DNA from: a virus
Lineage: Duplodnaviria > Caudoviricetes
DNA length: 31,208 nucleotides
IMG/VR virus record: IMGVR_UViG_3300020190_000242
Span: 1-31,208 of that record
Direction: 5' to 3' (one strand)
In this document: positions 89-30,341 of the stretch, one piece after another
Layout: the number at the start of each line of letters is the position of its first letter
Position numbering within the stretch: position 1 is the first letter of the stretch
Translations under genes and position numbers: made by a program
The notes under the pieces: model-generated
What the model was told of the DNA's origin: nothing
What the model saw: the letters and a program-made list of their open reading frames with translations, nothing else
The model's database searches: none

Positions 89-3000
89 TTAGGCTTTTGG
101 AGCCGTTTTTGATATTGATTGAACATATCGACTCATAATATTATTTGTAATTTCTACTTCTGGTTCTTCATTAAGAGCGACTCTTTGAAGTTCCTTTACC
201 TCACTTTTCACTTGTACTTTAGTCGGGAAGTAGTTCTCGCGTAATACAGCGAGTTTTTCTTCATAATCACCTTCTGTGGTGAACTCCACACCCTCTGCGA
301 GTGCCTTCATTTTCTCTGCTTGAACTGCTGTGAGTCCAGAGCAGAATGATTCTGTGACAATTGCTTTCTGAACAAAGTTAAGTTGCTCTTGAAGAGAAGC
401 AATTGTTGCGGTCTGATCTGCAACATGTTTATGTACATTCTCTACATACTCAGCTGCTGATTCAAGTTCAGATGCAAGTGTTTCTGCAACATCAACTTTT
501 TCTTCAGGAATCTCGATGTAGTGCTCTTGGAACAATGCACGTAAACCAGAGATAAAGTCTTCAGCGAGCTCAGCACGTAGACCTGTTTCGACAGCAACTT
601 TATTCTCTTGCATCCATTGTTCAACAACATAGTTGAGATATTCATCAACTTGCTCTGTCAATTCGTCTTTAATTTCCTCATATGCCTGTCCTAGAACTTG
701 GTCATTTGAAGCAACAAGCTCTTCTAGAATTTTTTCGACACGAGATGATACAGCTGCTTCGAAGATAAGTGTGGCTTTGGCGCGGAATTCTTCAGAGAGT
801 GATTCGCCATTAAACAGCGCATCTACATCCTCTCTCATATTGCCTTGGAACTGCTTGACCGTTTCTTTAATTGCAATCATTCTTTGCTCACGAATTTGCT
901 CTTCGGTGAGTTCAGCTGTTTTATCTTCAGCTTCTTCATCATCTTGCATATTTTGATCAGATTGCTGAGGCATTTGCTGAGGCTTTTGCTGAGGCATTTG
1001 CTGAGGCTTTTGCTGAGGCTTTTGCTGAGGCTTGAGCCGACCTTGTGGGTTCTTTCCACTTTCGCTGAGATTTTCATTCTCATTGAATGTCTCATTTGCT
1101 TCCTCTTGATTTTCTATGTCGTTCATATTCGAATCCTCAGTGCTTTCATTTGTTGTTTTACCACGAAATAAATTTAATGCCCCTTTGGCTAAATCATAAA
1201 CCGCTTGTCCAGCGGCGCCAGCTTTGGCAGCGTCTCCAAAATCTTGACCAGTTAATGCGCCGCCAATACCTGTTCGGAGACCAGTACGACCAGCCCTTTG
1301 TGCAAAATCAATAAATGCATTTCCAAGACCATATTTATCATTTCGTTGATTTGAACTTGTAGTTTGATTTGCGCTAGAGGAATCTGCAGAAGCACCTCCA
1401 CCAGAGGAAGAATCGGATCTAGATCTACCTCTTCTATCAATTGGATCTGAATGCCAATCCTCTAAACTGTTATATCTACCTTGAGGTCTTGCAGCGCCAT
1501 CATTTCCCTGTTGACCTGCTGTTTGCTCTGGTGGACCTGATCCTGCAGGATCAGGTCGACCTGATCCTGTACCTGAACCGCCAGCACCAGTGTTGGTAGC
1601 GCCAGCACCAGTGTTGTCAGCACCAAAGTTCAGACCCTGCTGAACTAACGTTAGCATTCTATTAGCATCAGCACCAAGATTTGTACTAGCAGCTGAACCA
1701 CCATCACTCTGCGCCTGGTACGCGACTGGTTGTGTAACTGGTCCTGAACCACCAGCTGGTTTTGAACCACCAGCTGGTTTTGAACCACTGCCATCAGATC
1801 CACCAGCACCCATTCTATTAACAGCAGCAAGAGCTTGCTTAAAATCAGCATCTAATTTTAAATTGCTTTCTTTAGTTTTACCAAGGCGTTCTCTCATTTT
1901 ATATGCATAATCTGCGCCAACATTAGGATCAACTCCGAAACCTGCAGCTAGTTGTGCACCAGATCTACGAATTGATGCTCCTGTTTTGCCATAGCGATCT
2001 TCATCACTCATTTCAGATGGTGCTTGAAATTTGGTTCCTGTCCAGAATTTGCCTTTATTTGCACCAGTTCCCCTTTCGCCATACTTCGGTGTTGCCACTG
2101 GTGCTGCCGCTGATGTTGCTGTCGTTGCAGCAGCGTTTGTTGCAGCAGCATTTAATGTTGCTGTCGTTGCAGCAGCATCTGTTTTAGCGCGTCGACGACG
2201 TGGACCACCCCTTTCAAATAAGTTTACAACGTATTCAGCTTGATCCTCTGATAATGAATTAATAAACTGATCTAGTTGCTCTTCATTTAATGTTGACAGT
2301 TGTTGAATGATATCTGTTTCTTCAGCAGCCATTCTATTTACTCCTCTTAATCGATCTTTGTTAGCGTTAATATCTCTCATGAAATTTCTAACTGAGTCTG
2401 GATCTTCATCGTCGTTGTCTTGATTTCTATTTTGTGCCACGCGTGTTTGTATATTCTCAGAATCATCTTGAACATTTTGATTAGATTGCTGAGGCTTTTC
2501 TCGTTTTTGTGCAGCTTGATTAAGTGCTGTTGAAGCGACGCTACCAGCAAGATCTGATCCTGTTCTTTGACCAACTGCTCCACCTGCTGCACTTGTAATA
2601 TTTCCAACAACTGCATCTCTCACACTGCCGCCTTGCAGTTTAGCAGAAGCAACATCGCGTGCAAGATTACCTACAAGCTCTGACCCTGTTGCTTTTGCAA
2701 TACTGCCACCAATTCCTCCAGTCACTCCACCAATCGCACCAGATTTGGCTCCTGATTTTAAGCCTGCTGAAAAACTACCGCCTGACAATTTACTTTGAAC
2801 ACCACCCTGAATTGCTCCCGATATGCTTTGTTGAACAACATTTTTCGCCAAGGTTTTTAAACCTGCTTTCAAACCTGCTTTTGCGACACCACTAGCAGCG
2901 GCACCACCAGCGCCACCAGCTGCTGCACCAGCAAAACCTAATTTTCCAGCAATTGCACCACCAATTCCAGGTAAAAGAAATCCAGCCGCAATTGGTGCTA

Positions 3001-3769
3001 ATTTCTTTAAAATTTTTCCAATACTTCTTTTCTTTTTAAGGACCCATTGTCCACGTTTAAATTTCCATTTCTTACCCTTGGGTGGAGGTTCTGTTGGTTT
3101 TGGAGGGCGTCCTGTATTCGGAGCTGGTGTCGGAGCTGGTGTCGGAGCTGGTGCAGAGGCGTTAACATTACCATCAGATCCACCACCAATACTTGAATTT
3201 TCATTATCACGTGCTGCTAATTCAGCAGGATCAGTTTCTTCATCTAAAGATGCAAGTTGAATTGTGTATACTATTTCCTCTTCATTTAATCTTTCAAAAA
3301 ATTTAACTAGTTCTTCATCGGATTGTGATTCAATAAAATCTTCTAGTTGATCTGCGTCCTCTTCCAACTGCATGAATTCATCTTCAGTAAATTCTCGTTG
3401 TTTAAAATCATTAATAATCGCTTCAATGAGTAATTCTTTTGCTCCATCTTCACCATATTGTTCAATTAAATTTTCCATTAAATTATTTGATTTCTCAGGC
3501 TCTTCAGATTCAGAATTTTCCTCTGACTCTTCATCCTCGGTTGGAAGTTTCTTAATTTCTTCTGCTGGAGCTCCAGGACGACCTGGTTTTGGTGTTGCAT
3601 TTATTGATTGTGCACTCATTAAACCTGGAGACACAACATCTCCAGTCATCATTTCACCACCTAAATCATTGTGTTGTATAGCAGCCATGCGAATAGGCTC
3701 TTTGCCAGCATTCGCCAATGACGCTGCAAGAATTTCAGCTGCCGACTCGTGTAATGTTTTATGAGCCAT
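89..3769 (-). CDS. gp22: Prohead core scaffold protein, greatly enlarged (1226 aa)
   Basis: C-terminal ~250 aa (MREDVDALFNGESLSEEFRAKATLIFEAAV...VDEYLNYVVEQW...GLRALFQEHYIEIPEEK...LRENYF) is the T4-like gp22 core; sits between gp21 and gp23. Confidence 0.9.
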   Translation of the reverse strand: MAHKTLHESAAEILAASLANAGKEPIRMAAIQHNDLGGEMMTGDVVSPGLMSAQSINATPKPGRPGAPAEEIKKLPTEDEESEENSESEEPEKSNNLMENLIEQYGEDGAKELLIEAIINDFKQREFTEDEFMQLEEDADQLEDFIESQSDEELVKFFERLNEEEIVYTIQLASLDEETDPAELAARDNENSSIGGGSDGNVNASAPAPTPAPTPAPNTGRPPKPTEPPPKGKKWKFKRGQWVLKKKRSIGKILKKLAPIAAGFLLPGIGGAIAGKLGFAGAAAGGAGGAAASGVAKAGLKAGLKTLAKNVVQQSISGAIQGGVQSKLSGGSFSAGLKSGAKSGAIGGVTGGIGGSIAKATGSELVGNLARDVASAKLQGGSVRDAVVGNITSAAGGAVGQRTGSDLAGSVASTALNQAAQKREKPQQSNQNVQDDSENIQTRVAQNRNQDNDDEDPDSVRNFMRDINANKDRLRGVNRMAAEETDIIQQLSTLNEEQLDQFINSLSEDQAEYVVNLFERGGPRRRRAKTDAAATTATLNAAATNAAATTATSAAAPVATPKYGERGTGANKGKFWTGTKFQAPSEMSDEDRYGKTGASIRRSGAQLAAGFGVDPNVGADYAYKMRERLGKTKESNLKLDADFKQALAAVNRMGAGGSDGSGSKPAGGSKPAGGSGPVTQPVAYQAQSDGGSAASTNLGADANRMLTLVQQGLNFGADNTGAGATNTGAGGSGTGSGRPDPAGSGPPEQTAGQQGNDGAARPQGRYNSLEDWHSDPIDRRGRSRSDSSSGGGASADSSSANQTTSSNQRNDKYGLGNAFIDFAQRAGRTGLRTGIGGALTGQDFGDAAKAGAAGQAVYDLAKGALNLFRGKTTNESTEDSNMNDIENQEEANETFNENENLSESGKNPQGRLKPQQKPQQKPQQMPQQKPQQMPQQSDQNMQDDEEAEDKTAELTEEQIREQRMIAIKETVKQFQGNMREDVDALFNGESLSEEFRAKATLIFEAAVSSRVEKILEELVASNDQVLGQAYEEIKDELTEQVDEYLNYVVEQWMQENKVAVETGLRAELAEDFISGLRALFQEHYIEIPEEKVDVAETLASELESAAEYVENVHKHVADQTATIASLQEQLNFVQKAIVTESFCSGLTAVQAEKMKALAEGVEFTTEGDYEEKLAVLRENYFPTKVQVKSEVKELQRVALNEEPEVEITNNIMSRYVQSISKTAPKA
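962..1033. repeat. 6 x 12-bp tandem repeat TTGCTGAGGC(A/T)T encoding (K/M)PQQ in gp22
   Basis: Read directly from the sequence. Confidence 0.9.
1745..1788. repeat. ~2.4 x 18-bp tandem repeat encoding GSKPAG in gp22
   Basis: tgaaccaccagctggttt twice plus a partial copy. Confidence 0.85.
3119..3154. repeat. 3 x 12-bp tandem repeat encoding (T/A)PAP in gp22
   Basis: cggagctggtg(t/c) three times. Confidence 0.85.
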
Positions 3770-15449: not shown

Positions 15450-15457
15450 TATTTAGT
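15450..15457 (-). promoter_or_regulatory. Late promoter variant ACTAAATA upstream of gp13
   Basis: Lies in the 30-bp gap, followed by a GAGG SD. Confidence 0.65.
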
Positions 15458-16203
15458 TATTCGATCAATCTACCCTCTCGAGATGTATAAATTCGATCAG
15501 GATCCATGTGAGCAAACTGCTCCCAATTAGGCTCGCCCTCTAATATTCTTTTACCAGTCGTCTCCTCGCCGATATGCTCAATTATATTTTCGCCTCGAGA
15601 ATTTTTTAATGTGGCAGAATACATCTGATGAAAATGGTCTAGATAAACCATTATCATTCCTTCATTAATATTAAACTTCCAATAATCTTGGAATGGATAT
15701 TCGATAATATTCTTACGATATAAACTAAAGATTATCGGAAAAGTCTTTGTATTTTTGCTATAGTAAAATTGCTTGAATTGCGTATCGCTCGATTCAATAG
15801 TTGATGGCTTCTCATTAAAGTACCATGGTTGTCGTTGTAAAACAACCGAGGCAATTTTAGATTCTGACTCGAGACATTCAATCAGATCGTCGACTTTAAT
15901 TGGTTCTTTTAGAATTACGTCATCCTCTTGATGAAGAACGTAATCTACATCCATACCTCGGAGCGAGGAGAAGAAATCCGACCAATTTACCGATAGTCCT
16001 TTATTAACTGAATTTCTCCATATCTCAAATCTATAGCGTTTACCAATCAAATCAAAGATCGCATCATTGCGTGTTCTTGGATAATCATCGACAATAATCT
16101 TTCGAACCTCATGATTTCCATAGTCTAAATTAGACAATGAGTTAAGTGTCGGAAACAGATATCGAATCCTGTTGCAAGAAAAGATTACATGAAGAATCTT
16201 CAT
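15457..16203 (-). CDS. Glycosyltransferase, GT-A fold (GT2-like)
   Basis: N-terminal VIFSCNR..YL, IIVDD, N.G, YVLHQEDD (DxD-type) and late EHIG motifs. Confidence 0.8.
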   Translation of the reverse strand: MKILHVIFSCNRIRYLFPTLNSLSNLDYGNHEVRKIIVDDYPRTRNDAIFDLIGKRYRFEIWRNSVNKGLSVNWSDFFSSLRGMDVDYVLHQEDDVILKEPIKVDDLIECLESESKIASVVLQRQPWYFNEKPSTIESSDTQFKQFYYSKNTKTFPIIFSLYRKNIIEYPFQDYWKFNINEGMIMVYLDHFHQMYSATLKNSRGENIIEHIGEETTGKRILEGEPNWEQFAHMDPDRIYTSREGRLIE

Positions 16204-16760
16204 TAGTATTCTGTATTAAAAAAGAATGTTTGAAATAGTCTTCCGTTTTGAAGATTATTTCCGAAATAATCTACTGAAGCATGATACATGTTTCCGCGAT
16301 ATAATACTAATCGATTATATTTGTTCGAGACATAATCTGTCATATCCCATTTGGTGTAATCATATCCATCATACTGCGGCTCATCGTTATTAGATCGCTC
16401 ATACTTCTTGTTCTCTTTCCATCGATATAGTGCAGTGCCAGCAGATATTGGTGCATCAGGGTTCAGATAACAAACACCAGCCCAAGTATTAAAACTATCT
16501 GCATGTATCCATGTACGATCTTTCGCCATGCAAATTTGAAAAGCGCCTGTGTATCCAGAACTTTCAAACCAATCTGTTATTTTTCCACTCGAGTGTTGAA
16601 CAATTCCTTGAATTGCACTTTTCAAATCGTCTGGTAAATACGCTTTGGTTCGAAGTCCAGGATAATTACCTGAAATTTCGAAAGGTTGTGAGAGCGCATA
16701 TTCCCTAACTGAATCTGGGTTTGTATAGAAATCATCTATAATAATAAGTTTAACTTTCAT
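16203..16760 (-). CDS. Putative 2OG-Fe(II) oxygenase-like protein (DUF6445-like)
   Basis: IIIDDFY.NPD.VR..AL, YPGLRT, WIHAD (HxD), WAGVCYL.P, GT, YNRLVLY...YH, R.FQ.FF. Probable start MKVKL at 16760. Confidence 0.7.
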   Translation of the reverse strand: MKVKLIIIDDFYTNPDSVREYALSQPFEISGNYPGLRTKAYLPDDLKSAIQGIVQHSSGKITDWFESSGYTGAFQICMAKDRTWIHADSFNTWAGVCYLNPDAPISAGTALYRWKENKKYERSNNDEPQYDGYDYTKWDMTDYVSNKYNRLVLYRGNMYHASVDYFGNNLQNGRLFQTFFFNTEY

Positions 16761-16767
16761 TTTATAT

Positions 16768-17520
16768 CTAGTAATGCATAAATCGACCGTCGACACCATT
16801 CCATCCCACCACATTCCAATTAGTTTCTATTATTCGACTCTCATTTGGTCGTGTAAGATAGTACATAAGAGTTTCAATATCGTAGTTTATCATTTCTTTA
16901 CTGTCGATGAAATGCATTGCAGCTTCATTTATCTCTATTATTGAATTTAAATTAGATGAACCAAATGCATACATAACGGTGCAATATTGTCTCAACATAT
17001 CATCATTTTGTATCGCTCTACGATCGACCATCCAATAATTCCAATTGTCATTCCATTTAAACTGTAGGGGTTTCTTAAAGAAGAATTTATCTTTATTTTC
17101 TTCTGTGAATAAACCATTATTAAAATTATTATGAAAATATCTTCCTGTGGCTTTTATGACAAAATCATAACCTTGTAATTCCTTCTTAAAGTGCGTATAA
17201 AACGAGTTTAGTAGTAAACATTCACAATAACTTTTATTTGTATGTGTGTTTACTTTTTCAAATGCTGTATATGAAATTTCTTTGAGTGGCACGAAATCAA
17301 CATTTTCAAACACATTAAACATTCTTTCATATTCGACATAGTCATCTGATGAATCGATTATCTTTATTTTTGCATCGGGTAAAATATTTTTAATCGAATT
17401 GATGGTAAAGATTGTTTGTCTAAATCGTTCATCTTTATTAAAAATAGAACGTGTTTCACTATATGTAAATTTACCTTCTCTTGGTTGAATTGATGAACCT
17501 ACTACTACAATTTTATTCAT
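16768..17520 (-). CDS. Hypothetical protein, possibly glycan-modifying / GT-like
   Basis: 250-aa ORF between GT genes; R..QT..TI.SI, IIDSS and K.TGRY motifs resemble uncharacterised proteins of glycan loci. Function is inference only. Confidence 0.55.
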   Translation of the reverse strand: MNKIVVVGSSIQPREGKFTYSETRSIFNKDERFRQTIFTINSIKNILPDAKIKIIDSSDDYVEYERMFNVFENVDFVPLKEISYTAFEKVNTHTNKSYCECLLLNSFYTHFKKELQGYDFVIKATGRYFHNNFNNGLFTEENKDKFFFKKPLQFKWNDNWNYWMVDRRAIQNDDMLRQYCTVMYAFGSSNLNSIIEINEAAMHFIDSKEMINYDIETLMYYLTRPNESRIIETNWNVVGWNGVDGRFMHY

Positions 17521-18511
17521 AGAATTTATTTTTAATAACTTTCTGTAAATATTGATGGTGTTTTTTATGCACCTCTTCGTCAGAAAAATTTAGTCCCCAC
17601 TTTCTACAATCATATGGTGATATTTTATCAATGTTTTCAATTGCAGTTAGTAATGATTTAAAATCGCGAATACGATAACCCGTATCGCCTTCTAATACAA
17701 TCTCTGGGAATGCGCCCCAGTCTGTTGTAATTACTGGAGTGCCGCAGAGATTCGCCTCAATAATCATGTTACCAAATGGCTCAACGTAGTATGTTAAACC
17801 AAATAGTGCTTTGGCGTTCTTCATTAGTTTCATGCGTTGTTCCGCATCATTTACATATCCAATTACCTCAACATGATCAGGCACGTTAGAATAACCAAGA
17901 TCATGCAATGATCCAGGTCCAGCTATTTTAAGTTTTTTGCCAAGTTTTTCTGTGGCTTGAATTGCTAAATGAATGCCCTTCTCTTCACAAACTCTTCCAA
18001 AGTGTAAAAAATAATCCTCTTTTGTTTCAGAGTATTCGAATTCTTCAATCGTAAATGGATTACCAATTACTGCATCAAACCACGAAGGATTCATGAGCAT
18101 CCCTCGTTCGCCATAAAAAAAGTGCATCTGAGCGTAAGAGGTAAACACTCTATAGTCACTAAAAATTCCACTTGTTCTATAGCCAATAGAAGGCTCTACG
18201 GCAATACATTCTGGATTCATTTTGCACGCAAGTTGATTATCAATACCAAAAAAACATACAATAATATCACCCTTATCTGAACGTTTGCGTATTTGCGCGC
18301 CTGCACGTTCATTAAATAATCTTATCTCCACAGGCGTGGTATTAATATCGACATGCTCGCAATCCACTTGTGCACCAGGAATACCATAATGAACCATCTC
18401 ATAATGTTTAGATAGATGCTTGATGTATTTGTATGCATGAACCGCAAAGGGATCTATACGATTCATCAACCCAGTCGGATTTCTGGGATTTGCTAAAACA
18501 TGTATTTTCAT
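17513..18511 (-). CDS. Glycosyltransferase, GT-B fold (GT4 / Glycos_transf_1)
   Basis: FGRV.EEKG and EPFGNMIIEANLCGTPVITTDWGAFPE (EX7E signature). Confidence 0.92.
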   Translation of the reverse strand: MKIHVLANPRNPTGLMNRIDPFAVHAYKYIKHLSKHYEMVHYGIPGAQVDCEHVDINTTPVEIRLFNERAGAQIRKRSDKGDIIVCFFGIDNQLACKMNPECIAVEPSIGYRTSGIFSDYRVFTSYAQMHFFYGERGMLMNPSWFDAVIGNPFTIEEFEYSETKEDYFLHFGRVCEEKGIHLAIQATEKLGKKLKIAGPGSLHDLGYSNVPDHVEVIGYVNDAEQRMKLMKNAKALFGLTYYVEPFGNMIIEANLCGTPVITTDWGAFPEIVLEGDTGYRIRDFKSLLTAIENIDKISPYDCRKWGLNFSDEEVHKKHHQYLQKVIKNKFYE

Positions 18512-18520
18512 AAAAAAATA

Positions 18521-19234
18521 TTAGAATGTAATTCCTTTAGAAGCAAAGAAATCGTAATCAATTTGATACTTTTGCATAATTAAATTGCGCTCTTCTGTCG
18601 TAAACGGAACATCAGTATCTAAATTAATGTTCTCATTTTTGCGCGGTACTTCTTCTATAGTAACATCAAAGAACGAAAGAAGTCGACGTAGTTCATTATC
18701 ATAATCAGCAAAATTTAAATATGTGATATCAATATCATGATCTAACCATCGTTTTTGATATGCTAATCCAGTTTCTATGGTAGCAGGAATAGTGTCAATC
18801 GAAGGAACTAAATCTAATATTTGATCTAATGTGATCGACTCTAAAATTGCTCTGGTTTCTTCCGACAACCATAAATAACTCTCAGGATAATGTCTATTAG
18901 GAAACAAAAAGTCATCATATATTTTTTTGCGAACTTGCAATAAAGCCTTTCTCGATTCTTCTAGCGTTGAAAATTTATTAAGAGCACCCATGTATGTGTG
19001 TCGTTTATAATATTTAAACGCCGAAGTAAATCTACTCACAGGATCTCTGTAAAAGCAAAAGAATTTATATTTGTCGAAATCAGGCAACTCAAATGCTTGT
19101 GATGCTAAAGTATAATTTAAATGATTTTGTTTTTTAAAAGTTACTGGAATATTTTTAAATGCCACCATAATTGAAGTTGATCCAACTTTAGGATTTAAAA
19201 ACACACCAATTTTTTTTTCTGTACAATATATCAT
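18521..19234 (-). CDS. Sulfotransferase (Sulfotransfer_2-like)
   Basis: 5'-PSB loop NPKVGSTSI, 3'-PB motif RDPVSRFTSAF, C-terminal Y..DY..F. Confidence 0.8.
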   Translation of the reverse strand: MIYCTEKKIGVFLNPKVGSTSIMVAFKNIPVTFKKQNHLNYTLASQAFELPDFDKYKFFCFYRDPVSRFTSAFKYYKRHTYMGALNKFSTLEESRKALLQVRKKIYDDFLFPNRHYPESYLWLSEETRAILESITLDQILDLVPSIDTIPATIETGLAYQKRWLDHDIDITYLNFADYDNELRRLLSFFDVTIEEVPRKNENINLDTDVPFTTEERNLIMQKYQIDYDFFASKGITF

Positions 19235-19408
19235 TTACCATTTACCTACAGGACAATTAATTAAATCTTGATTTACAAGATGTTTAACCTTTTGTTCACA
19301 AATTCCGCATTTGATTTCTTTTTCTATGTAAAATGCGCATAATTTACAGATATTAAACCGCTTGAGCGCGAGTGAGTCTATCGGATACTCTCTTTTCTCT
19401 ACTTGCAT
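19235..19408 (-). CDS. 57-aa Cys-rich putative metal-binding protein (DUF6171-like)
   Basis: Hand translation: MQVEKREYPIDSLALKRFNICKLCAFYIEKEIKCGICEQKVKHLVNQDLINCPVGKW; fills the gap exactly and abuts the next ATG. Below the ORF-track cutoff. Confidence 0.8.
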   Translation of the reverse strand: MQVEKREYPIDSLALKRFNICKLCAFYIEKEIKCGICEQKVKHLVNQDLINCPVGKW

Positions 19409-19414
19409 ATTTAG

Positions 19415-20011
19415 TTATTTAAATTTAGGACCAGAAACCCAAATAACAAGAGATCTACGAATGCCAGATGTGACAGGTGTTACTCGATGTAACATCCAAG
19501 ATGGAAATGCATATAGCAATCCCTTTTGTTTTTTGGCTTTTATTGGTTCAGCTGATACAAAAAACTCTAAATCCCCACCCTCATACTCATTTGGATCTGA
19601 TAACTGCAATACTAATGAAAGTTTACGTGGTGTTTCGCGTGATCCTCTATCAATATGCCAAGTATAGTGATCCCCTGCGCCATCGTATACTGTATATTGA
19701 AAATCTTCAACAAACCCATCTAAACTAAAATCGTAGAATTGTCCATTGAGATGTCTGCAAATATATGCTAATGAATCATATAACCAAGTCGTCTCATTGT
19801 TAAGTTGTATCCAAGAAGTTTTAGATTTTCTAATTTCAGATATAACTTTTCTTTCATTTTCTGTACCAACAATTGCTTCCTTTGGTCGCAAACTCTCACC
19901 AATGCGAACAATATCATTAATTTGAGAGTCGGTGAATCCATTTTCCCAAAATGTAAATGTTTGTTCTCTTGTCGATAAATCAGGCGATGGCGCAAAAAAG
20001 TATGTGCTCAT
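19415..20011 (-). CDS. 2OG-Fe(II) oxygenase, PKHD / prolyl-4-hydroxylase-like
   Basis: Y.WHID (HxD), RKLSLVLQL, YEGG.L, FPS..LHRVTPVT.G.R.SLV.W (distal His and 2OG-binding Arg). Confidence 0.92.
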   Translation of the reverse strand: MSTYFFAPSPDLSTREQTFTFWENGFTDSQINDIVRIGESLRPKEAIVGTENERKVISEIRKSKTSWIQLNNETTWLYDSLAYICRHLNGQFYDFSLDGFVEDFQYTVYDGAGDHYTWHIDRGSRETPRKLSLVLQLSDPNEYEGGDLEFFVSAEPIKAKKQKGLLYAFPSWMLHRVTPVTSGIRRSLVIWVSGPKFK

Positions 20012-20736
20012 TACTTTCTACTCCAAATAAAATCTCTATAAATGCTTTCGTGCGCTTTTCTTCTCGCTCTTGTTGTGTTCAAATCTTTATGATCTTTTTT
20101 ATTAAATGGTCTAATTCTTGATTTTGTAATTAATCCATCTCGTTTAATTGGTATTGCTTGCACCATTGGAGTTCCAGCCTCAATCATGCCAGTATAGTTT
20201 GGTAAATGAAAAAAGAATGGAAAGTTAATGTATTCAAAGTAACCATCACAATCAACAAATCCTGACATACAAGTAAATTTTGGATCTTGACGATTTAATG
20301 GTGGCACAAATAAAACTGAATATCCTTTCGGAACTTTGATTGCCCACCAATTCAAAAATTTCATTGGTGGTTTCGGCATCATTGGATGCGGTGTTCGTTT
20401 GGTACTTATTTGATCAGCATTGTGATTTTCTACAAGAGTCCTTGTGAAAGTCCACTTGTAATTTACACCGCTCGCATCTGTATTTGTGATGAACTCCACA
20501 TCACCGCAAAGTGGAATAATCCAACCAACAGACATTGCATCAAGAACAGGCGCACAACGCTTGATTGTGCTGTTCTCAATTTTATTTTCGCGATTAATTT
20601 TTGGTGGTAATTCTTTGTACCACTCTGGCATCATTTTGCGCGCGGGATATGGCTCAGGCATTGTGCCATATAATTCTTCTTCACACAAGAATTCAATTTC
20701 TGGAGTTTTAATTACAGACTTTAATTTCGAAAACAT
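20011..20736 (-). CDS. Conserved phage hypothetical protein (TIKRC.P..DAM..G family, DUF6065-like / dUTPase-like beta fold)
   Basis: PEWYK, TIKRCAPVLDAMSVGWIIPL, KFLN.W, G.VD.D, AGTP.VQ.IP motifs; GAGG SD favours ATG at 20736. Confidence 0.7.
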   Translation of the reverse strand: MFSKLKSVIKTPEIEFLCEEELYGTMPEPYPARKMMPEWYKELPPKINRENKIENSTIKRCAPVLDAMSVGWIIPLCGDVEFITNTDASGVNYKWTFTRTLVENHNADQISTKRTPHPMMPKPPMKFLNWWAIKVPKGYSVLFVPPLNRQDPKFTCMSGFVDCDGYFEYINFPFFFHLPNYTGMIEAGTPMVQAIPIKRDGLITKSRIRPFNKKDHKDLNTTRARRKAHESIYRDFIWSRK

Positions 20737-20769
20737 GTTCACCTCACCAATCCATAATTATATATGGAT

Positions 20770-20786: not shown

Positions 20787-23700
20787 TTATTGATTTGGCC
20801 AAGAGATCGTAATCGATCCTGTTCCAGCACCAGTTCCTACTGAAATTGTACTTGTTGCGCCTTGTGATACTGATTTTTGCATTGTAGAAGAAGAATTGGT
20901 TGTGCTAGCTGCGCTTCCAGAACCTCCTGGTTGACCAGAAGTTGCTCCAGTTCCTGCAGAGCCAGCATTACCTGCTGATCCATTTGAGCCAGCTGCACCA
21001 TTACCGCCAGCGTTTCCTGGTTGCCCTGCTGCTCCTGGTTGACCAGAGGTTGCTCCAGTTCCTGCAGCGCCAGTATTTCCAGCAGCACCATTTGCTCCTG
21101 CTGATCCTGGTTGTCCAGCTGCTCCTGAAGTTGCTCCAGATCCTGCAGCACCAGTATTTCCAGCAGTTCCGTTAGCACCAGCTGCTCCTGGTTGTCCAGC
21201 TGCTCCTGAAGTTGCTCCAGATCCTGCGCCTCCGATAGTGCCTGGTGCACCATTGGCACCTGCTGATCCAGGTTGTCCTGCAGCACCATTTGTTGCTCCG
21301 CTGCCACCTGCGCCTGTATTGCCTGCGACACCATTGGCACCCGCACTACCTGGTTGTCCTGCTGATCCTGATGTTGCACCAGAACCGCCTGCACCAGTAT
21401 TACCTGCTGTGCCATTGGCACCTGCTGATCCAGGTTGTCCTGCAGCACCATTATTTGCTCCAGATCCAGCATTTCCTGGTTGCCCTGCTGCTCCAGCATT
21501 TCCATTGGCTCCAGCATTTCCTGGTTGTCCAGCATTACCACCAGCACCGTTTGTGGCACCACTTCCACCACCACCAGTATTTCCTCCAGCTCCTGCTGAT
21601 CCTGGTTGACCAGCAGATCCATTAGAACCAGCAGCTGCGAGATCGGTGCTGGCTGGTCCTCCTCCACCGCCAGCACCGGATCCTGGATTTCCTCCAGCAC
21701 CTCCTGCCGAACCTGGTTGTCCGTCCGCAGTATGAGTTATTGGGATCCAAGGACTATAAGTCTCTGACATTCCAGCACCACCACCGCCGCCACCGCCGCC
21801 GCCACCGCCACCACCTGGTGTTCCTGCATTTCCTGGTGATCCTGGATTACCTGCCGAACCACCACTACCACCATTACCAGCTGCGCCACCATTGCCATTA
21901 TTACCTGTATTTCCTGGCTGACCTGTTGCACCAACATTACCTGGATTTCCAGCATTACCTTGCGCACCACCAGCTCCACCAGCACCATTAGTGCCTGGAT
22001 TGCCTGAATTGCCTTGAGCACCTGGATTGCCAGCAGAACCACCAGCTCCACCTGCACCGCCAGCTCCATTATTTCCTGGTTGCCCTGCATTACCTAGTGC
22101 ACCTGGATTACCTGCCGAGCCACCAGCTCCACCAGCACCTCCAGCACCATTGTTTCCTGGTTGACCAGTATTTCCTTGAGCACCTGGATTGCCAGCAGAA
22201 CCTCCTGCGCCTCCAGCTCCACCAGCACCATTAGTGCCTGGATTGCCTGAATTGCCTTGAGCACCTGGATTGCCAGCAGAACCACCAGCTCCACCTGCAC
22301 CTCCCGCTCCGTTGTTTCCTGGTTGTCCAGTATTTCCTTGTGCGCCTGAATTTCCTGCTGCACCACCCGCACCACCTGCACCGCCAGATCCACCATTTCC
22401 AGCATCACCATTTGTTCCTGGTTGACCTGCTGTTCCAGCGTTTCCTGGTTGACCAATATTACCTGCTGCTCCAGCAGCACCAGCGTTACCGCCAGAACCG
22501 CCTGGAAGAGAAACTGTTGTAAATGTAACAGATGAACCTGCTACAAAAGTTGTTGCATTTCCTGCATTACCTGCGGAGCCAGCAGATCCTGCTGCTCCAG
22601 GATTTCCGGCATTGCCTGGTTGACCTGATGTGCCAGGATTTGCTCCAGTACCAGCATTACCTGCTGCGCCTGTTGATCCTGGTGTTCCAGAGTTGCCATT
22701 TGCCCCCGCAGCTCCAGGTTGTCCTGCAGATCCTGGTGTTGCTCCTGTTCCTGCCGCTCCTGTATTGCCAGCAGCACCTGCTGAACCTGCATTTCCTGGT
22801 TGTCCTGCTGAACCAGATGTAGCGCCTGATCCTGCAGCACCAGTATTACCTGCTGTGCCATTGGCACCTGCTGATCCTGGTTGACCCGCAGCCCCCGAAG
22901 TTGCTCCAGATCCCGCAGCGCCAGTATTTCCTGCCGCGCCATTTGCACCTGCAGCTCCAGGTTGTCCCGCTTGACCAATATTAGCGCCAGAACCAGCAGC
23001 ACCAGTATTACCTGCTGCTCCAGCAGATCCTGCATTTCCTGGTTGTCCGCTCGCGCCAGGATTTGCTCCAGAACCACCACCGCCAGTATTTCCAGCATTT
23101 CCGTTTGCACCAGCATTTCCTGGCTGGCCAGCAGATCCTGGTTGTCCACCAGTTGCACCTGAGCCTCCGCTTCCAGGATTACCTGCTGCACCTGTGTTTC
23201 CTGCTGCACCTGCATTACCACCAGAACCAGGATTTCCTGATCCACCTGATCCAGCATTTCCACCGTTACCAGCATTACCGCCATAATTAAGTAAAGTTCC
23301 TGGATATCCTGGTGATGCAGGATTACCGCCACCTTGACCATAAGTCCCACTTGCACCATAATTTGGATATCCGATATTTCCTGTAGGATTGCCATTTGTT
23401 CCTGTGTTTCCATTATTTCCTGGTGTGGTTGAACTTGGTTGTGTAAATACTGACCAGCCACCTTGTCCACCACCACCTGCATTGCCGCCGTTTGCACCAG
23501 CACCACCTGCACCACCATTTCCGTTGCTACCAGCATTACCAGTCGCACCAGCATTTCCTGCGTTTCCTGGATTGCCAGCATTTCCTCTAGCACCGCCTGG
23601 ACCTCCAGCACCACCGTTTCCGTTAGTTCCAGGATTTCCTGAGTTTCCTGTAGCACCTGAATTGCCAGCAGAGCCTCCTGCGCCACCAGCACCACCGTTT

Positions 23701-24299
23701 CCATTTGAACCAGGTTGTCCAGTGTTGCCTTGTGCTCCAGGGTTGCCAGCATTTCCTCTGGCGCCACCAGCACCGCCAGCTCCGTTGTTTCCTGGCTGTC
23801 CTGTGTTGCCCTGCGCGCCTGGATTACCTGCTGAACCTCCAGCACCACCTGCTCCGCCAGCACCATTTGAGCCAGGTTGACCTGTGTTACCTTGAGCACC
23901 TGAATTGCCAGCAGAGCCTCCTGCGCCACCAGCACCACCGTTTCCATTTGAACCAGGTTGTCCAGTGTTTCCTATTGCTCCGGAATTGCCAGCAGAACCC
24001 CCTGCACCACCAGCACCACCCGCACCATTATTACCTGCATTTCCTGGCTGACCTGTTGAACCTTGTGCTCCTGGATTACCAGCATTACCAGCAGTACCAC
24101 CTGTACCAGCAGAACCACCATTACCTCCGACGCCATTATTTCCAGGATTACCTGCAGTACCAGCATTACCTGTACCACCTGTACCAGAAATTGTAATTCG
24201 TCGAACGCCAAATGGAATGTACCATGTTCCGTTCGTTGAAAATGTAACGGAACCTGCTTTTACTCTCGTTTTTCGAAGAGTCGTCGCTGCTAATGGCAT
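20787..24299 (-). CDS. 1170-aa glycine-rich (G-X-X) virion fibre/adhesin candidate
   Basis: Gly at nearly every third residue with 27-aa higher-order repeats; beta-strand-like termini (TFSTNGTWYIP...ITISG; TISVG...GSITISW) typical of phage Gly-rich domains. Confidence 0.85.
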   Translation of the reverse strand: MPLAATTLRKTRVKAGSVTFSTNGTWYIPFGVRRITISGTGGTGNAGTAGNPGNNGVGGNGGSAGTGGTAGNAGNPGAQGSTGQPGNAGNNGAGGAGGAGGSAGNSGAIGNTGQPGSNGNGGAGGAGGSAGNSGAQGNTGQPGSNGAGGAGGAGGSAGNPGAQGNTGQPGNNGAGGAGGARGNAGNPGAQGNTGQPGSNGNGGAGGAGGSAGNSGATGNSGNPGTNGNGGAGGPGGARGNAGNPGNAGNAGATGNAGSNGNGGAGGAGANGGNAGGGGQGGWSVFTQPSSTTPGNNGNTGTNGNPTGNIGYPNYGASGTYGQGGGNPASPGYPGTLLNYGGNAGNGGNAGSGGSGNPGSGGNAGAAGNTGAAGNPGSGGSGATGGQPGSAGQPGNAGANGNAGNTGGGGSGANPGASGQPGNAGSAGAAGNTGAAGSGANIGQAGQPGAAGANGAAGNTGAAGSGATSGAAGQPGSAGANGTAGNTGAAGSGATSGSAGQPGNAGSAGAAGNTGAAGTGATPGSAGQPGAAGANGNSGTPGSTGAAGNAGTGANPGTSGQPGNAGNPGAAGSAGSAGNAGNATTFVAGSSVTFTTVSLPGGSGGNAGAAGAAGNIGQPGNAGTAGQPGTNGDAGNGGSGGAGGAGGAAGNSGAQGNTGQPGNNGAGGAGGAGGSAGNPGAQGNSGNPGTNGAGGAGGAGGSAGNPGAQGNTGQPGNNGAGGAGGAGGSAGNPGALGNAGQPGNNGAGGAGGAGGSAGNPGAQGNSGNPGTNGAGGAGGAQGNAGNPGNVGATGQPGNTGNNGNGGAAGNGGSGGSAGNPGSPGNAGTPGGGGGGGGGGGGGAGMSETYSPWIPITHTADGQPGSAGGAGGNPGSGAGGGGGPASTDLAAAGSNGSAGQPGSAGAGGNTGGGGSGATNGAGGNAGQPGNAGANGNAGAAGQPGNAGSGANNGAAGQPGSAGANGTAGNTGAGGSGATSGSAGQPGSAGANGVAGNTGAGGSGATNGAAGQPGSAGANGAPGTIGGAGSGATSGAAGQPGAAGANGTAGNTGAAGSGATSGAAGQPGSAGANGAAGNTGAAGTGATSGQPGAAGQPGNAGGNGAAGSNGSAGNAGSAGTGATSGQPGGSGSAASTTNSSSTMQKSVSQGATSTISVGTGAGTGSITISWPNQ
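20916..24185. repeat. Two classes of degenerate 81-bp (27-aa) repeats in four blocks
   Basis: Class A GAGGAGGAGGSAGNPGAQGNTGQPGNN; class B GSGATSGAAGQPGSAGANGTAGNTGAA. Confidence 0.9.
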
Positions 24300-24316: not shown

Positions 24317-24664
24317 TTAAGCAGGTTGAACAATCTTATCAAGATTTGCCATCAATTGAGAACTTTGAAGTTCTGTTAAACCTTCTACAGCATTTGTGGC
24401 TACATCGTCAGTGTCATACACACCTTCCCAATGAACGATTGGGAGTTTTGTGAATGTCTTATGCGACATTGTTTCGCCATCATAATAGTTCCAAGTGCCT
24501 AGAGCTGAATACAAACCTTCGAGAGTTGAATCATCGCTCCAGTTTAAATGTTGAAATGGAACATTGTTATCTTTGAGAAGTTTAACAGCATTCCAGCACT
24601 CACCAGCATCTGCAGTCATTGCAGTATAAACAGTGATCTTCTTAATTTTAACTAAATTAGCCAT
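24317..24664 (-). CDS. Glutaredoxin/thioredoxin-fold-like protein with a single Cys
   Basis: ITVYT.....AGECWNAVKLLKDNNVPF..LN and TKLPIV (cis-Pro-like) pattern; AGGAGG SD. Confidence 0.55.
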   Translation of the reverse strand: MANLVKIKKITVYTAMTADAGECWNAVKLLKDNNVPFQHLNWSDDSTLEGLYSALGTWNYYDGETMSHKTFTKLPIVHWEGVYDTDDVATNAVEGLTELQSSQLMANLDKIVQPA

Positions 24665-24678: not shown

Positions 24679-25083
24679 CTAACGTCCAAGATTGGCTAGG
24701 GCATGCGAAGCGTAATACGTTTCGCCGCCATCAAATGTCATCAATGTAATTACATCAGCAAAATCTGGTTTTGATGAGAGTATTGCAACTTCACCAAAAG
24801 ACCAGAAAACGTTTTCAGGAAATACAACCTTACGATTTCCCATGTTATCTTGCTTTAATATTAATGTGCAAGAATAACTTTTATCTGCTTCTGGCAAATT
24901 ATCGAACGAAATATTTATAATATTTTTTCTCAGTGTAATATGAAAAACATTTGATTCTCGTAGATCAAGAATCTCAATATTATTTACCGCATTTATTTTA
25001 GTAATCTTCTCGCGATACGCTTTTAATACGCCTTCAAATGTATCGAGACGATTTTTGCGAAGTGAAACTACATTTCCGTCCAT
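24679..25083 (-). CDS. Stand-alone copy of the fibre C-terminal beta domain
   Basis: Aligns by eye with the C-terminus of the upstream collagen protein (NVF.ITL, TLILKQ, V.F...V.WS..EV..LSS, DVITL.T..GG.TY...HA.AN). Confidence 0.8.
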   Translation of the reverse strand: MDGNVVSLRKNRLDTFEGVLKAYREKITKINAVNNIEILDLRESNVFHITLRKNIINISFDNLPEADKSYSCTLILKQDNMGNRKVVFPENVFWSFGEVAILSSKPDFADVITLMTFDGGETYYASHALANLGR

Positions 25084-25098: not shown

Positions 25099-27426
25099 TC
25101 AGTAAGATACGTTAGCCATAGCATGTGCGCCAAAGTATGTAGCACCATTATTAACAGTAAACAAAGTAATCACATCAAGTTTGCTGGCGATTCCAGAAGA
25201 CAATGTAGGAACTTCGGCATTCGACCAGTATACAGTATTTGCAAATGTAACAACATTTGCTGCAGTTCCAGGCTGTCTTAGGATTAGCGTTAATGGGCTA
25301 GACTTACCTGAAGCAGCAACGCTTGTAAATGTAATTGCTACAGTTGATGCTTGAAGCGTGAGATCAAAAATATTGTTTCCAGAAGCATCAGCTGTAAATG
25401 TCGAACCAGTAATTGTTGCACTGTTTGTGCGTTCAATATATCCATACAATTCAACACCACCAGAAGCCATTGGTCCTTGTGGACCTTGAGGACCTTGTGG
25501 TCCAGTCACACCCTGTGGTCCTTGCGGTCCCTGTGGTCCTTGTGGTCCAGTCACACCCTGTGGTCCTTGTGGTCCCTGTGGACCTTGTGGACCAGTTACA
25601 CCTTGCGGTCCTTGTGGTCCCTGAGGACCAGTGACGCCTTGTGGTCCTTGTGGACCTTGTGGACCAGTAACACCTTGCGGTCCTTGTGGTCCCTGAGGAC
25701 CAGTGTCGCCTTGTGGTCCTTGTGGTCCAGGAACGTTCGAAACACCAGCTGGTCCTTGTGGACCTTGAGGTCCAGTATCACCTTGTGAACCTTGTGGACC
25801 TTGAGGTCCAGTCACACCTTGTGGACCTTGCGGACCTTGTGGACCAGTCACACCTTGTGGACCTTGTGGACCAGTCACACCTTGTGGACCTTGTGGACCT
25901 TGCGGACCCTGTGGACCTGTTGGTCCTGGGACGTTAGACACACCGCTTGGTCCCTGTGGACCTTGAGGTCCAGTATCACCTTGTGGACCTTGTGGTCCTT
26001 GCGGACCAGTCACACCTTGTGGACCCTGTGGTCCTTGCGGACCTTGTGGTCCCTGTGGTCCTTGAGGACCTGCATCACCCTTGTCACCAGTTCTTGCAAA
26101 TGTAATAATAACATTTGTTGAATCTGGGAATGTTGTTACGCCAGTTGTGTGCGCAACAGGAACATAGAAGTAACTTGAAGTGTGATCATGCAATCCATTA
26201 ATACTAAAGAATGCAAACTCATTAATGTTTGCACTATTTGCTAACTTAAATGTTCCTTTGATTGTTGAAGTAGAGTCGTCAATTGTTTGTAGATAATTAA
26301 ATACATTTGCTGAATTTTGATCAATGAAATCAATATACAATGTTGTTGCTGTCGAGAAAGATGCGCTATTGAATTTTAAATTTGATGATCCAGGATCTGA
26401 GTTTGCTGTGTTTGTTAGATACACAAACTCAAATGTTGCGCCACCGAATTCGCCAGTGTCACCCTTTGCTCCTTGAGGACCTTGCGGTCCTTGTGGACCC
26501 TGTGGTCCTTGTGGACCTTGTGGACCCTGTGGACCAGTAACACCAATCACACCTTGTGGACCTTGCGGACCTTGTGGTCCTTGCGGTCCAGTTAAACCAA
26601 TTGGACCTTGTGGTCCTGTTGGTCCAGGAACATTTGAGACACCAGATGGTCCTTGAGGACCTTGTGGACCTTCAACTCCTTGTGGTCCTTGTGGACCAAT
26701 AACACCTTGTGGTCCTTGTGGTCCTTGTGGACCCTGTGGACCTTGTGGACCAGGAACATTCGAAACACCACTTGGTCCTTGTGGACCTTCTGGACCCTGT
26801 GGACCTGTTGGTCCTGGAACATTCGAAACACCACTTGGTCCTTGTGGACCTTGCGGTCCTTGTGGTCCTGTTGGTCCAGGAACATTTGAAACGCCAGCTG
26901 GTCCTTGTGGACCCTCAACTCCTTGTGGTCCCTGAGGACCTTGTGGACCCTGTGGACCAGTCACACCTTGCGGACCTTGTGGTCCTTGAGGTCCTGTTAC
27001 TCCTTGTGGACCCTGCGGTCCTTGTGGTCCTTGAGGACCAGTGTCGCCAATGACACCTTGTGAACCCTGCGGACCTTGTGGACCTTGTGGTCCAGTTACA
27101 CCTTGAGGACCTTGTGGACCAGTGATACCCTGTGGTCCTTGTGGACCAATGTCGCCAGTCACACCTTGTGGTCCTTGTGGACCAGTTACACCTTGCGGAC
27201 CTTGTGCACCAGTTACACCCTGCGGTCCTTGTGGACCTTGTGGACCAGTTGCACCTTGTGATCCTTGAGAACCAGTCACACCTTGCGGACCTTGAGGTCC
27301 TTGTGGACCAACACCCTGTGGACCTTGTGGACCCTGCGGTCCTTGTGGACCTTGCGGACCTTGTGGACCGCGTGCAATTTGCAAAACATTTACAGATTGG
27401 CTTTGCTGTTTAACTGTAACTGCCAT
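25099..27426 (-). CDS. Collagen-like tail fibre protein (two G-X-Y blocks, central and C-terminal globular domains)
   Basis: GPQ/GVT/GDT triplets at ~26450-27370 and ~25470-26085, a central beta-rich domain, and a ~120-aa C-terminal domain. Confidence 0.92.
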
Positions 27427-29182: not shown

Positions 29183-29322
29183 TATAATTCCTCTGCTTCA
29201 GTTTCTGGATCAGTGAAAGGGGCTTTGATATAACTCTTCAATGGAAGATTAATTGTTGTCTCGTCGCCGTTGTCCCATTGCAGTGTGGTATTTGCGCTAT
29301 TATTTTCTGTATTTGCTGACAT
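29182..29322 (-). CDS. 46-aa acidic microprotein
   Basis: Hand translation: MSANTENNSANTTLQWDNGDETTINLPLKSYIKAPFTDPETEAEEL; TAATG overlaps at both ends. Not in the ORF track. Confidence 0.7.
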   Translation of the reverse strand: MSANTENNSANTTLQWDNGDETTINLPLKSYIKAPFTDPETEAEEL

Positions 29323-30341
29323 TAGTATACCAACACTCCATCAGCATAAAAGTTTGGACTTGTTTTAAATTTATTATTAAAGGTGTAGACTGTATCAAAA
29401 TGATCAATTCGTACAATTTCATCTACCTGGATTGAATTATTGTCTTTATCCACAAAGTTGTCGCCAACTTCCACCATCTGAACATTAGTTAAACTCTTGT
29501 ACCCATTCATTGTGAGTGCAGGATTCATCGAACAATATCCTTTACCAACTACAAAAAATGGATGATCATGTGAAGCACGTATTTCTTTTCCATTTGCTAG
29601 AGTATACTTGTACATCATTCTATTCACGCGTGTAATTAATTCCTCAACTTCATTAGTTTCATGCTGCTGAGTTTCTGGATTATATGATAGAATTTGATCA
29701 CCAACCTGAATTTGATTAATATTTTTTTTTGATAAATCAGCCATTGTAACTTCAGTATCATGTGTAAAACAACAACCGCCGCCGCCTCCGCCGCCGCCGC
29801 CACCGACGCCGTCAGGTATCGCGCCACCATCATTAAATCGTAATCCAATTGTAAATGTTCCGCTGGCTGGTAGATTAAACGGTTGATTCCAATAAATCTC
29901 AGCACCACCTGTACCATATCCATTCACTGTGCTTGTAATTGTTCTTTGAATATCTTGTGTTGCTAAAATATTAATGTTACCGGCAGGATAATTTTCAAAT
30001 GCAACCCACATAAACATCACTTCTGTACCATCACCATAATTAAATGATATAACAGAAGCCACATTTTGAGTAATACTAGTATTGGCTATTACAATTTGAT
30101 CATCAATGCTTCCATGCAAATATTCAGTAAACCCAGTTTGATTTCCAAATTTTTGATCATAAGAAGCAGAAGTAACGGTTGCTCCATATGATCTATAAAG
30201 ATCACTCATTCTAACATCATTATTAAAACCGAGTCCAAGTCTATTTGCAGCATCACTGCGCAATGCAACCTGACCTGAAAATGATTGCAGGATCTCCAAT
30301 CTGAGTGAACTCATGCTGATTTGTCCAGAGGTTGGTGTCAT
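29322..30341 (-). CDS. Putative fibre-tip protein with a C-terminal Hint (hedgehog/intein) domain
   Basis: Gly10 linker, then CF...T.V.MAD...K.I..I.VGD.I.S (block A), ASHDHPF (block B) and VY.F......NFYADGVLVY (blocks F/G). Confidence 0.85.
   Translation of the reverse strand: MTPTSGQISMSSLRLEILQSFSGQVALRSDAANRLGLGFNNDVRMSDLYRSYGATVTSASYDQKFGNQTGFTEYLHGSIDDQIVIANTSITQNVASVISFNYGDGTEVMFMWVAFENYPAGNINILATQDIQRTITSTVNGYGTGGAEIYWNQPFNLPASGTFTIGLRFNDGGAIPDGVGGGGGGGGGGCCFTHDTEVTMADLSKKNINQIQVGDQILSYNPETQQHETNEVEELITRVNRMMYKYTLANGKEIRASHDHPFFVVGKGYCSMNPALTMNGYKSLTNVQMVEVGDNFVDKDNNSIQVDEIVRIDHFDTVYTFNNKFKTSPNFYADGVLVY

What the first reader, a model, noticed from the sequence alone, without database searches (positions are those of the whole stretch)
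20787..24299. Gly-rich protein with four length-matched arms (A-B-A-B): candidate single-chain four-stranded polyglycine-II fibre
Seen: short non-repetitive segments divide the G-X-X tract into four arms of nearly equal length: 24185-23457 (243 aa), 23282-22554 (243 aa), 22502-21771 (244 aa) and 21629-20916 (~238 aa). Arms 1 and 3 use one 27-aa unit (GAGGAGGAGGSAGNPGAQGNTGQPGNN); arms 2 and 4 use another with a register break (GSGATSGAAGQPGSAGANGTAGNTGAA). The arm1/2 and arm3/4 junctions carry aromatic loops (WSVFTQ...YPNY...LLNY; MSETYSPWIPITH), while the N-terminus, central hinge (TTFVAGSSVTFTTVSLP) and C-terminus look like beta strands. Known: G-X-X tracts form polyglycine-II bundles (phage S16 gp38, snow-flea antifreeze protein), but with short helices. 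Inference: the chain runs out-back-out-back, with the three beta segments forming a base and both aromatic loops meeting at a receptor-binding tip. At ~0.31 nm per residue this is a ~75-nm monomeric rod whose four arms must change length together. I know of no description of this architecture.
Basis: partly seen in the sequence, partly recalled or inferred. Interest (0 to 1): 0.85.

Follow-up and report, generated by a model that had tools for sequence, protein, structure and literature searches.

The report
Four-stranded glycine rod, swappable tips
A lake-phage protein has four glycine-repeat arms that lengthen and shorten together across its relatives and keep step with each other, so one chain most likely folds into a thin rod about 75 nm long with a variable host-binding tip, a fibre design with no solved structure that I could find.

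Summary
The 1170-aa gene has four Gly-X-X arms (A-B-A-B) separated by a hinge and two aromatic tips. In 25 measured relatives the repeat counts of all four arms co-vary (r 0.96-1.00). Seven protein pairs differ by the same multiple of 27 aa in each arm.

The exact match is crosswise. Arm 1 copies the irregular spacing of arm 4, and arm 3 that of arm 2 (7 of 7 proteins), while the tips join 1-2 and 3-4. This closes a ring and disfavours two independent hairpins. The two arm pairs are staggered by half a repeat, and the two tips have swapped places at least three times, as a two-fold screw would allow.

Best reading: a single-chain, four-stranded antiparallel polyglycine-II stalk between a small beta base and a gp38-like tip, probably a fibre-tip adhesin. 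Four relatives are short in one arm, one probably by assembly collapse. No fold could be run, so shape, length and monomeric state are inferred. The scan reported this architecture before on other DNA; the few lines I saw of those notes do not mention the crosswise register or tip swaps.

The parts
20787..24299 (-). Four-arm glycine-rich protein, 1170 aa
   Evidence: same gene in 7 viral contigs
24255..24299 (-). N-terminal basic peptide (aa 1-15); candidate attachment to a fibre end (inferred)
   Evidence: conserved in the close clade; binding untested
24180..24254 (-). N-terminal base strands (aa 16-40)
   Evidence: family consensus block from 146 members
23457..24179 (-). Arm 1, A type (outgoing), 8 repeat motifs, spacing 36,27,27,27,27,27,33
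23283..23456 (-). Tip Q: aromatic loops between short Gly strands; sits in the second half in L075 and L070
22554..23282 (-). Arm 2, B type (returning), 7 motifs, spacing 33,27,27,27,27,30 counted from the base, identical to arm 3
22500..22553 (-). Hinge (aa 583-600), central base strands
21771..22499 (-). Arm 3, A type, 7 motifs, ending in the polyglycine run
21777..21815 (-). 13-glycine run; candidate buried central strand of the tip lattice (inferred)
   Evidence: all-Gly central helices in S16 gp38
21630..21770 (-). Tip P: hypervariable aromatic loop and a conserved Gly hairpin; sits in the first half in L075, L070, L026, L038
20910..21629 (-). Arm 4, B type, 8 motifs, spacing identical to arm 1
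20790..20909 (-). C-terminal base strands (aa 1131-1170); the first block is the one that scores against Pam3 gp24
24317..24664 (-). 115-aa partner, glutaredoxin-like pattern without CXXC; candidate chaperone (inferred)
   Evidence: weak GlrX hit, E 0.036, far below cut-off; beside 23 of 23 long members
24679..25083 (-). 134-aa stand-alone copy of the fibre C-terminal domain; candidate docking partner
   Evidence: PHROG tail fibre hits; 35% identical to the collagen fibre's C-terminus
25099..27426 (-). 775-aa collagen-like fibre ending in that domain
20011..20742 (-). 243-aa conserved downstream protein (phrog_7084; a relative scores at the DUF6065 cut-off)
   Evidence: beside 20 of 23 long members
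19415..20011 (-). 2OG-Fe(II) oxygenase; candidate modifier of X-Pro-Gly sites (inferred)
   Evidence: a 2OG-type gene lies within 3 kb of 75 of 77 members, no background control

Best explanation
One chain leaves a small beta-sandwich base, runs out as arm 1, returns as arm 2, adds the hinge strands to the base, runs out as arm 3 and returns as arm 4. The four arms pack side by side as extended antiparallel polyglycine-II strands. Every 27 residues an Asn-bearing triplet of an A arm faces the Gly-less triplet of a B arm (arm 1 with 4, arm 3 with 2). The two pairs are offset by half a repeat, giving a pseudo two-fold screw. The two tips meet at the far end as a short polyglycine lattice with variable aromatic loops. 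The rod (about 70-75 nm) most likely caps a phage fibre through its N-terminal peptide and carries the host-binding loops outward. Shown: four arms, co-variation, crosswise register, stagger, tip swaps, gene neighbourhood. Inferred: PGII conformation, length, single chain, docking, receptor binding.
For: Repeat counts: A3=B2 in 24 of 25, A1=B4 in 21 of 25, all six r 0.955-0.997. Seven of seven chosen pairs show four matching indels of about 27, 54 or 81 aa, one per arm. Spacing vectors are identical for 1-4 and 3-2 in 7 of 7 proteins with irregular repeats and in 0 of 7 for the other four pairings; 1 of 720 permutations over 6 distinct patterns reaches this. The window's tips match the opposite-position tips of L075 (0.61 and 0.66 against 0.21 and 0.20), and the base tree forces at least 3 changes of tip order. 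All 4 P-first members are n,n,n,n; 14 of the other 21 are n+1,n+1,n,n. A arms are 44-46% Gly and B arms 36-37%, in line with Gly rising with neighbour number in PPII bundles. Aromatics: tips 5.6%, arms 0.2%. The fibre C-terminal domain gene lies beside 23 of 23 long members. ESM Atlas features place a short member near Gly_rich_2 clusters (0.93).
Against: No structural model exists. Four of 25 members are short in one arm: L131 by 3 repeats, L028 by 1, L013 by 1, L025 by about 2. Only L131 is readily explained as collapse (0 mismatches to L130); L013's short arm 1 recurs in a second contig, L012. L140 and L041 have n,n,n,n with tip P second, against the parity rule. Members are related, so counts overstate independence. 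No Pfam, PHROG or PDB sequence match ties the base to a solved fold. No cultured phage relative was found, so virion location is unproven. Register cannot tell contacts within a chain from contacts between chains.
Confidence: 0.64

Rival explanations
1. Same registers, but between chains: a domain-swapped dimer or a trimer of rods, as Pam3 gp24 is a trimer of TNF-like plus Gly-rich subunits.
For: Sequence register cannot separate intra- from inter-chain pairing. Pam3 gp24 is trimeric (PMC9608196).
Against: Pam3 gp24 trimerises mainly through an N-terminal helical bundle; this protein has only about 15 residues before the base. S16 gp38 is a monomer on a trimeric fibre.
Confidence: 0.12
2. The four arms stay in register but coil or fold in layers, one repeat of each arm per layer, giving a shorter and thicker solenoid or sandwich.
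For: A layered fold would also force co-variation. Solved PPII-bundle helices are only about 4-11 residues long (Table 1 of PMC13243192). B arms have a regular Gly-less triplet that tolerates 3-residue loop insertions.
Against: A arms keep Gly at every third residue for 76 of 76 triplets with no turn. Spacings vary in steps of three (27, 30, 33, 36), as extended three-residue helices allow.
Confidence: 0.11
3. Two independent hairpins (arm 1-2 and arm 3-4) forming a forked fibre with two tips.
For: Tips link 1-2 and 3-4 covalently; the gene looks like a tandem duplication; an earlier scan note used this wording.
Against: Irregular intervals match for 1-2 and 3-4 in at most 1 of 15 cases at any of three offsets, but in 15 of 15 for 1-4 and 3-2. 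Counts of arms in different halves track each other.
Confidence: 0.05
4. An ordinary collagen-like homotrimer, as the Pfam Collagen hit suggests.
For: PF01391 at E 2e-36; long perfect Gly-X-Y runs in the A arms.
Against: 46 of 152 A-arm triplets have a second Gly and 28 a Pro, against 1 of 148 and 103 in the neighbouring collagen. B arms lose Gly every ninth triplet. A parallel trimer gives no reason for arm 4, read backwards, to copy arm 1.
Confidence: 0.03
5. A flexible or non-virion protein, for example a substrate of the neighbouring oxygenases and glycosyltransferases with no adhesin role.
For: 2OG-type genes lie within 3 kb of 75 of 77 members; 61 of 68 Pro are followed by Gly; there is no virion proteomics.
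Against: Residue-exact register across four arms is not expected of a disordered chain; variable aromatic tips and fibre-gene linkage fit a receptor-binding part.
Confidence: 0.05

Closest known systems
T-even gp38 adhesin (Salmonella phage S16, PDB 6F45; Pfam PF05268, PF21721)
   Same: Two excursions from a small base run along the fibre axis and build a polyglycine-II tip with an all-Gly strand and hypervariable distal loops; gene follows a fibre gene (passages of PMC6851490).
   Different: No sequence match (hhalign 0.5%; no PF05268 hit). No three-Trp helical attachment domain. gp38's excursions are 18 and 77 residues; here they are 542 and 530.
Cyanophage Pam3 tail fibre gp24 (PDB 7YPX; TNF-like plus glycine-rich domain; near Pfam PF21722 Gly_rich_2)
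   Same: Beta strands that extend into Gly-rich loops with variable ends. The family's first C-terminal block scores on gp24 residues 134-148 above 498 of 500 shuffles. gp24 scores 23.8 against the PF21722 cut-off of 24.3; Atlas features link short members to PF21722 clusters.
   Different: The other three base blocks do not beat shuffles; hhalign 1.9%. The shared strand lies before the middle in gp24 but at the end here, so the wiring looks permuted (my reading). gp24 has six loops, is a trimer and is about 10 nm long.
Glycine-rich PPII bundles: snow-flea antifreeze proteins, Obg, ALK/LTK glycine-rich domain
   Same: Gly-X-X strands, antiparallel preference, Gly content rising with neighbours (bioRxiv 10.1101/2023.11.25.568672).
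   Different: Six to fourteen short helices in compact layers; here four strands of about 240 residues.
Collagen triple helix (Pfam PF01391)
   Same: Gly-X-Y repeat, Pro mostly before Gly, 2OG oxygenase next door.
   Different: Three parallel chains in collagen; here evidence for four antiparallel arms of one chain, many Gly-X-Gly triplets and a regular Gly-less triplet.

Membership tests
gp38 adhesin (PF05268) | Profile match to GP38 or Gp38_N | tested here: not met
   No hit for the window protein or 20 short members; S16 gp38 control hits both; hhalign 0.5%
gp38 adhesin (PF05268) | N-terminal helical bundle with three Trp that caps a trimer | tested here: not met
   About 15 residues precede the base, with no Trp
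gp38 adhesin (PF05268) | Gly-rich motifs separated by hypervariable distal loops, with an all-Gly strand | tested here: met
   Tip comparison of 8 close members; aromatic share
gp38 adhesin (PF05268) | Monomer at a fibre tip that sets host range | not testable with these tools
   Only gene linkage; no cultured relative
TNF-like plus glycine-rich domain (Pam3 gp24, PF21722) | PF21722 profile match | tested here: not met
   No hit; Atlas features 0.75 for the window protein and 0.93 for a short member are leads only
TNF-like plus glycine-rich domain (Pam3 gp24, PF21722) | Shared beta-strand elements in the same order | tested here: inconclusive
   1 of 4 blocks beats shuffles; order appears permuted
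TNF-like plus glycine-rich domain (Pam3 gp24, PF21722) | TNF-like beta-sandwich fold | not tested
   No model could be obtained, so no fold search was run
Glycine-rich PPII (PGII) bundle | Gly at every third residue, small residues, extra Gly in more buried strands | tested here: met
Glycine-rich PPII (PGII) bundle | Antiparallel neighbours in register | tested here: met
   By sequence register only: arm 4 read backwards copies arm 1, arm 2 copies arm 3
Glycine-rich PPII (PGII) bundle | PPII backbone and inter-strand hydrogen-bond lattice | not testable with these tools
   Needs a structure, CD or NMR
Collagen triple helix | Uninterrupted, Pro-rich Gly-X-Y with rare Gly at X or Y | tested here: not met
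   the Pfam hit reflects the triplet pattern

The most novel reading that the evidence does not exclude
A distinct class of protein fibre: a single-chain, four-stranded antiparallel Gly-X-X rod with a 27-residue clasp and a pseudo two-fold screw. It is tunable from about 10 to 90 nm in half-repeat steps, each odd step exchanging the two tip modules in the gene, and it is perhaps hydroxylated by phage-encoded oxygenases.
Probability: 0.55. Interest if true: 0.87.

Novelty: new variant of a known kind. Interest (0 to 1): 0.72.

Why it matters
Known phage fibres are mostly homotrimers, and known glycine-rich PPII bundles are compact with short helices. A one-chain rod of four 240-residue strands would extend that structural class about twenty-fold in helix length. 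It would also give designers a monomeric, length-tunable spacer with a natural length series (441 to 1323 aa). The crosswise register yields residue-level pairing predictions that are cheap to test. The gene poses an evolutionary puzzle: four separate indels must accumulate together, and tips exchange places. Databases would label these proteins collagen or hypothetical, so a common receptor-binding family of uncultured aquatic phages may be overlooked.

Tried and rejected

Full-length profile searches were swamped by collagens and gave no new long member. The N-terminal region search for long proteins found none. The genome-contig scan gave 4 weak loci and no family member. There was no match in cultured phages or PDB sequences (the few hits were linker or collagen artefacts).

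T4 late-promoter matches were at chance level (3 against 1.6 expected). No RNA holder was listed. Joints in the laid contigs had sides of 20-24 letters and were treated as repeat noise. A strain pair (L026, L112) showed no excess of amino-acid change in tips, so tip hypervariability rests on more distant members.

My first motif count picked up tip motifs and gave r of only 0.68-0.97 for the outermost motif. One search tightened the gap rule, set the L011 anchor and the L025 gap by hand, and still miscounts one motif in L151. Tip-swap by a single origin is rejected by the tree. An origin by simple A-B duplication is rejected as the cause of the match, since it predicts 1=3 and 2=4.

Literature searches found no description of a long four-stranded PGII rod. 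The library lacks most subscription papers, and I read no supplements.
Full report
Setting. The window is a whole 31-kb linear virus record, estimated 17% complete, found in lake-water metagenomes. It has a T4-type scaffolding protein; I recognised the portal, sheath, terminase and neck genes from their sequence only. The gene lies in a run of minus-strand genes between a collagen fibre and a cluster of oxygenases and glycosyltransferases.

Observation. The ORF, the four Gly-X-X arms, the two 27-residue units, the tips and the hinge are as described. A arms have Gly first in 76 of 76 triplets, with Gly-X-Gly in about a third. B arms replace Gly by Ala in one triplet of nine and keep the frame. 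Differences between repeats are mostly silent. Seven viral contigs carry the gene at the same length, though they need not be independent.

The family. Searches with the non-repetitive N-terminus gave 77 distinct complete proteins in loci and 98 database proteins, mostly 340-550 aa. Nearly all complete ones keep the same frame: N-terminal strands, a hinge, C-terminal strands and two excursions. Short members have stubs for arms and large Cys/Pro/aromatic tips. I counted repeats in 26 members of 444-1323 aa and dropped one near-copy (L112). The other 51 locus proteins (short members and near-copies), the database proteins and partial genes were not counted.

Co-variation. In 25 members all six pairwise correlations of repeat number are 0.955-0.997; arm 3 equals arm 2 in 24 and arm 1 equals arm 4 in 21. 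I chose seven related pairs for global alignment and all seven show one matching indel per arm. L146/L151 and L037/L146 show 27 x 4 exactly. L140/L169, L009/L010 and L075/L070 show about 27 x 4, with split gaps. The window against L009 shows 54 x 4, and L123/L030 shows 81 x 4. Repeat length also co-varies: B units are three residues longer than A units where they carry a Trp loop (30 against 27 in L130; 36 against 33 in L025).

Crosswise register. Measured from the base, the window's arm 1 motifs are spaced 36,27,27,27,27,27,33, and arm 4 read backwards is identical. Arms 3 and 2 share 33,27,27,27,27,30. In the seven close relatives with irregular repeats the whole spacing vector is identical for 1-4 and 3-2 in 7 of 7, and for the other four pairings in 0 of 7. 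Irregular intervals in those pairings match at most 1 of 15 at offsets -1, 0 and +1. Permuting over the six distinct patterns reaches the observed score 1 time in 720; that test mostly reflects differences in repeat number, and the first interval is shared by descent. Since the tips join 1-2 and 3-4, and register joins 1-4 and 3-2, the four arms form a closed ring on one axis. Laid side by side, the Asn-ending triplet of arm 3 falls opposite the Gly-less triplet of arm 2 at all seven repeats. Arms 1 and 4 show the same within one triplet of my anchor, and the two pairs are offset by four to five triplets, half a repeat.

Tip swaps. In L075 and L070 the window's two tips occur in reverse order (similarity 0.50-0.66 crosswise, 0.20-0.23 in place). 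L026 and L038 show the same in another clade. A tree of the base segments (23 rows, 96 columns; L112, L131 and L028 left out) needs 4 changes of order, and its well-supported branches force at least 3. All four members with the polyglycine tip first have n,n,n,n repeats. Of the other 21, 14 have n+1,n+1,n,n; L151 does so if one tip motif is discounted; L140 and L041 do not; four are short in one arm. Inference: the rod has a pseudo two-fold screw, so adding half a repeat turns the tip by 180 degrees, which in the gene means exchanging tips. Excision between the A arms and reinsertion between the B arms could do this in two crossovers (speculation).

Results against. L131 lacks three repeats in arm 4 but is otherwise identical to L130 over 3225 bases, in an arm with 112-base exact repeats, which looks like assembly collapse. 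L028 is a diverged strain one repeat short. L013 is one short in arm 1, also in contig L012, and L025 about two short. All four are shortfalls, the direction expected of collapse, but real tolerated mismatches are not excluded. How four coordinated indels arise without such intermediates is unexplained.

Function. Tips keep Gly strands and vary in the aromatic loops between them; aromatics are 5.6% in tips and 0.2% in arms. Within 3 kb, among 23 long members with enough flank, 23 have a gene with the fibre C-terminal domain, 23 the glutaredoxin-like partner, 20 the 243-aa protein and 21 a 2OG-type gene (iterated local profiles, no background control). This fits an adhesin at a fibre end, as S16 gp38 caps gp37. 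Docking by the N-terminal peptide, chaperoning by the 115-aa protein and hydroxylation of X-Pro-Gly (61 of 68 Pro) are inferences. Bacterial dioxygenases were proposed to modify co-encoded collagen-like or tail-collar proteins (PMC2938197). At 0.31 nm per residue the stalk is about 75 nm, and about 70 nm at a collagen-like rise that I recalled.

Relation to known systems. It works like gp38 but is not a member by profile. Kinship of the base with Pam3 gp24 and PF21722 is suggested by Atlas features and one strand block, not established. The Collagen hit is a triplet effect. Published PPII bundles have helices of 4-11 residues. Eight literature searches found no long four-stranded form.

Papers seen. 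bioRxiv 10.1101/2023.11.25.568672: parts 1-3 of 4 of the text. PMC9608196, PMC6851490, PMC13243192, PMC2938197, PMC9301287, PMC13243795, PMC12143355: passages found by term. PMC13419713: a short held text in which my terms did not occur. Others: search listings only. No supplements were read. Earlier scan notes report the same four-arm design in other phages; they are unchecked AI notes and are not counted as support.

Verdict. A real, well-constrained architecture. The four-arm coupling is shown by sequence; the rod, its length and its role are inferred and await a model or an experiment. New variant of the polyglycine adhesin kind, with a stalk that would be a new fibre design if confirmed.

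Noticed in passing
window 89-3769 (-): T4-type scaffolding protein of 1226 aa. The Pfam domain covers only aa 978-1218; the rest holds acidic blocks, Pro and Gln repeats, and basic and Gly/Ala-rich segments.
   Followed up: no
window 29322-30341 (-): 339-aa protein with an 11-Gly run followed directly by Cys-Cys and a Hint domain, beside a collagen fibre with an S74 chaperone domain.
   Followed up: partly
window 24317-24664 (-): Glutaredoxin-like protein lacking CXXC; found beside 23 of 23 long members but 5 of 41 short ones, so it may serve folding of long stalks.
   Followed up: partly
L051:5867-6325 and relatives: A different conserved small protein lies beside 36 of 41 short members and 0 of 23 long ones, nearly exclusive with the glutaredoxin-like gene.
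   Followed up: partly
window 24679-25083 and 25099-25500 (-): A stand-alone paralogue of the collagen fibre's C-terminal domain (35% identity); the pair recurs in the close clade and could form a mixed trimer.
   Followed up: partly
L130:4968-8462, L026:5001-8537, L025:8343-11291: B repeats carry a Trp-containing loop; in L130 every B repeat also has two Cys, so the stalk itself may be decorated or cross-linked.
   Followed up: partly
L002:3514-5949: The neighbouring collagen gene is 811 aa against 775 aa in the window, while the four-arm gene keeps its length with 7 base changes.
   Followed up: no
window 15457-20742 (-): Run of modifying-enzyme genes (GT2, DUF6445, GT1, 2OG-Fe(II) oxygenase, unknowns) between the fibre genes and the neck genes.
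   Followed up: no
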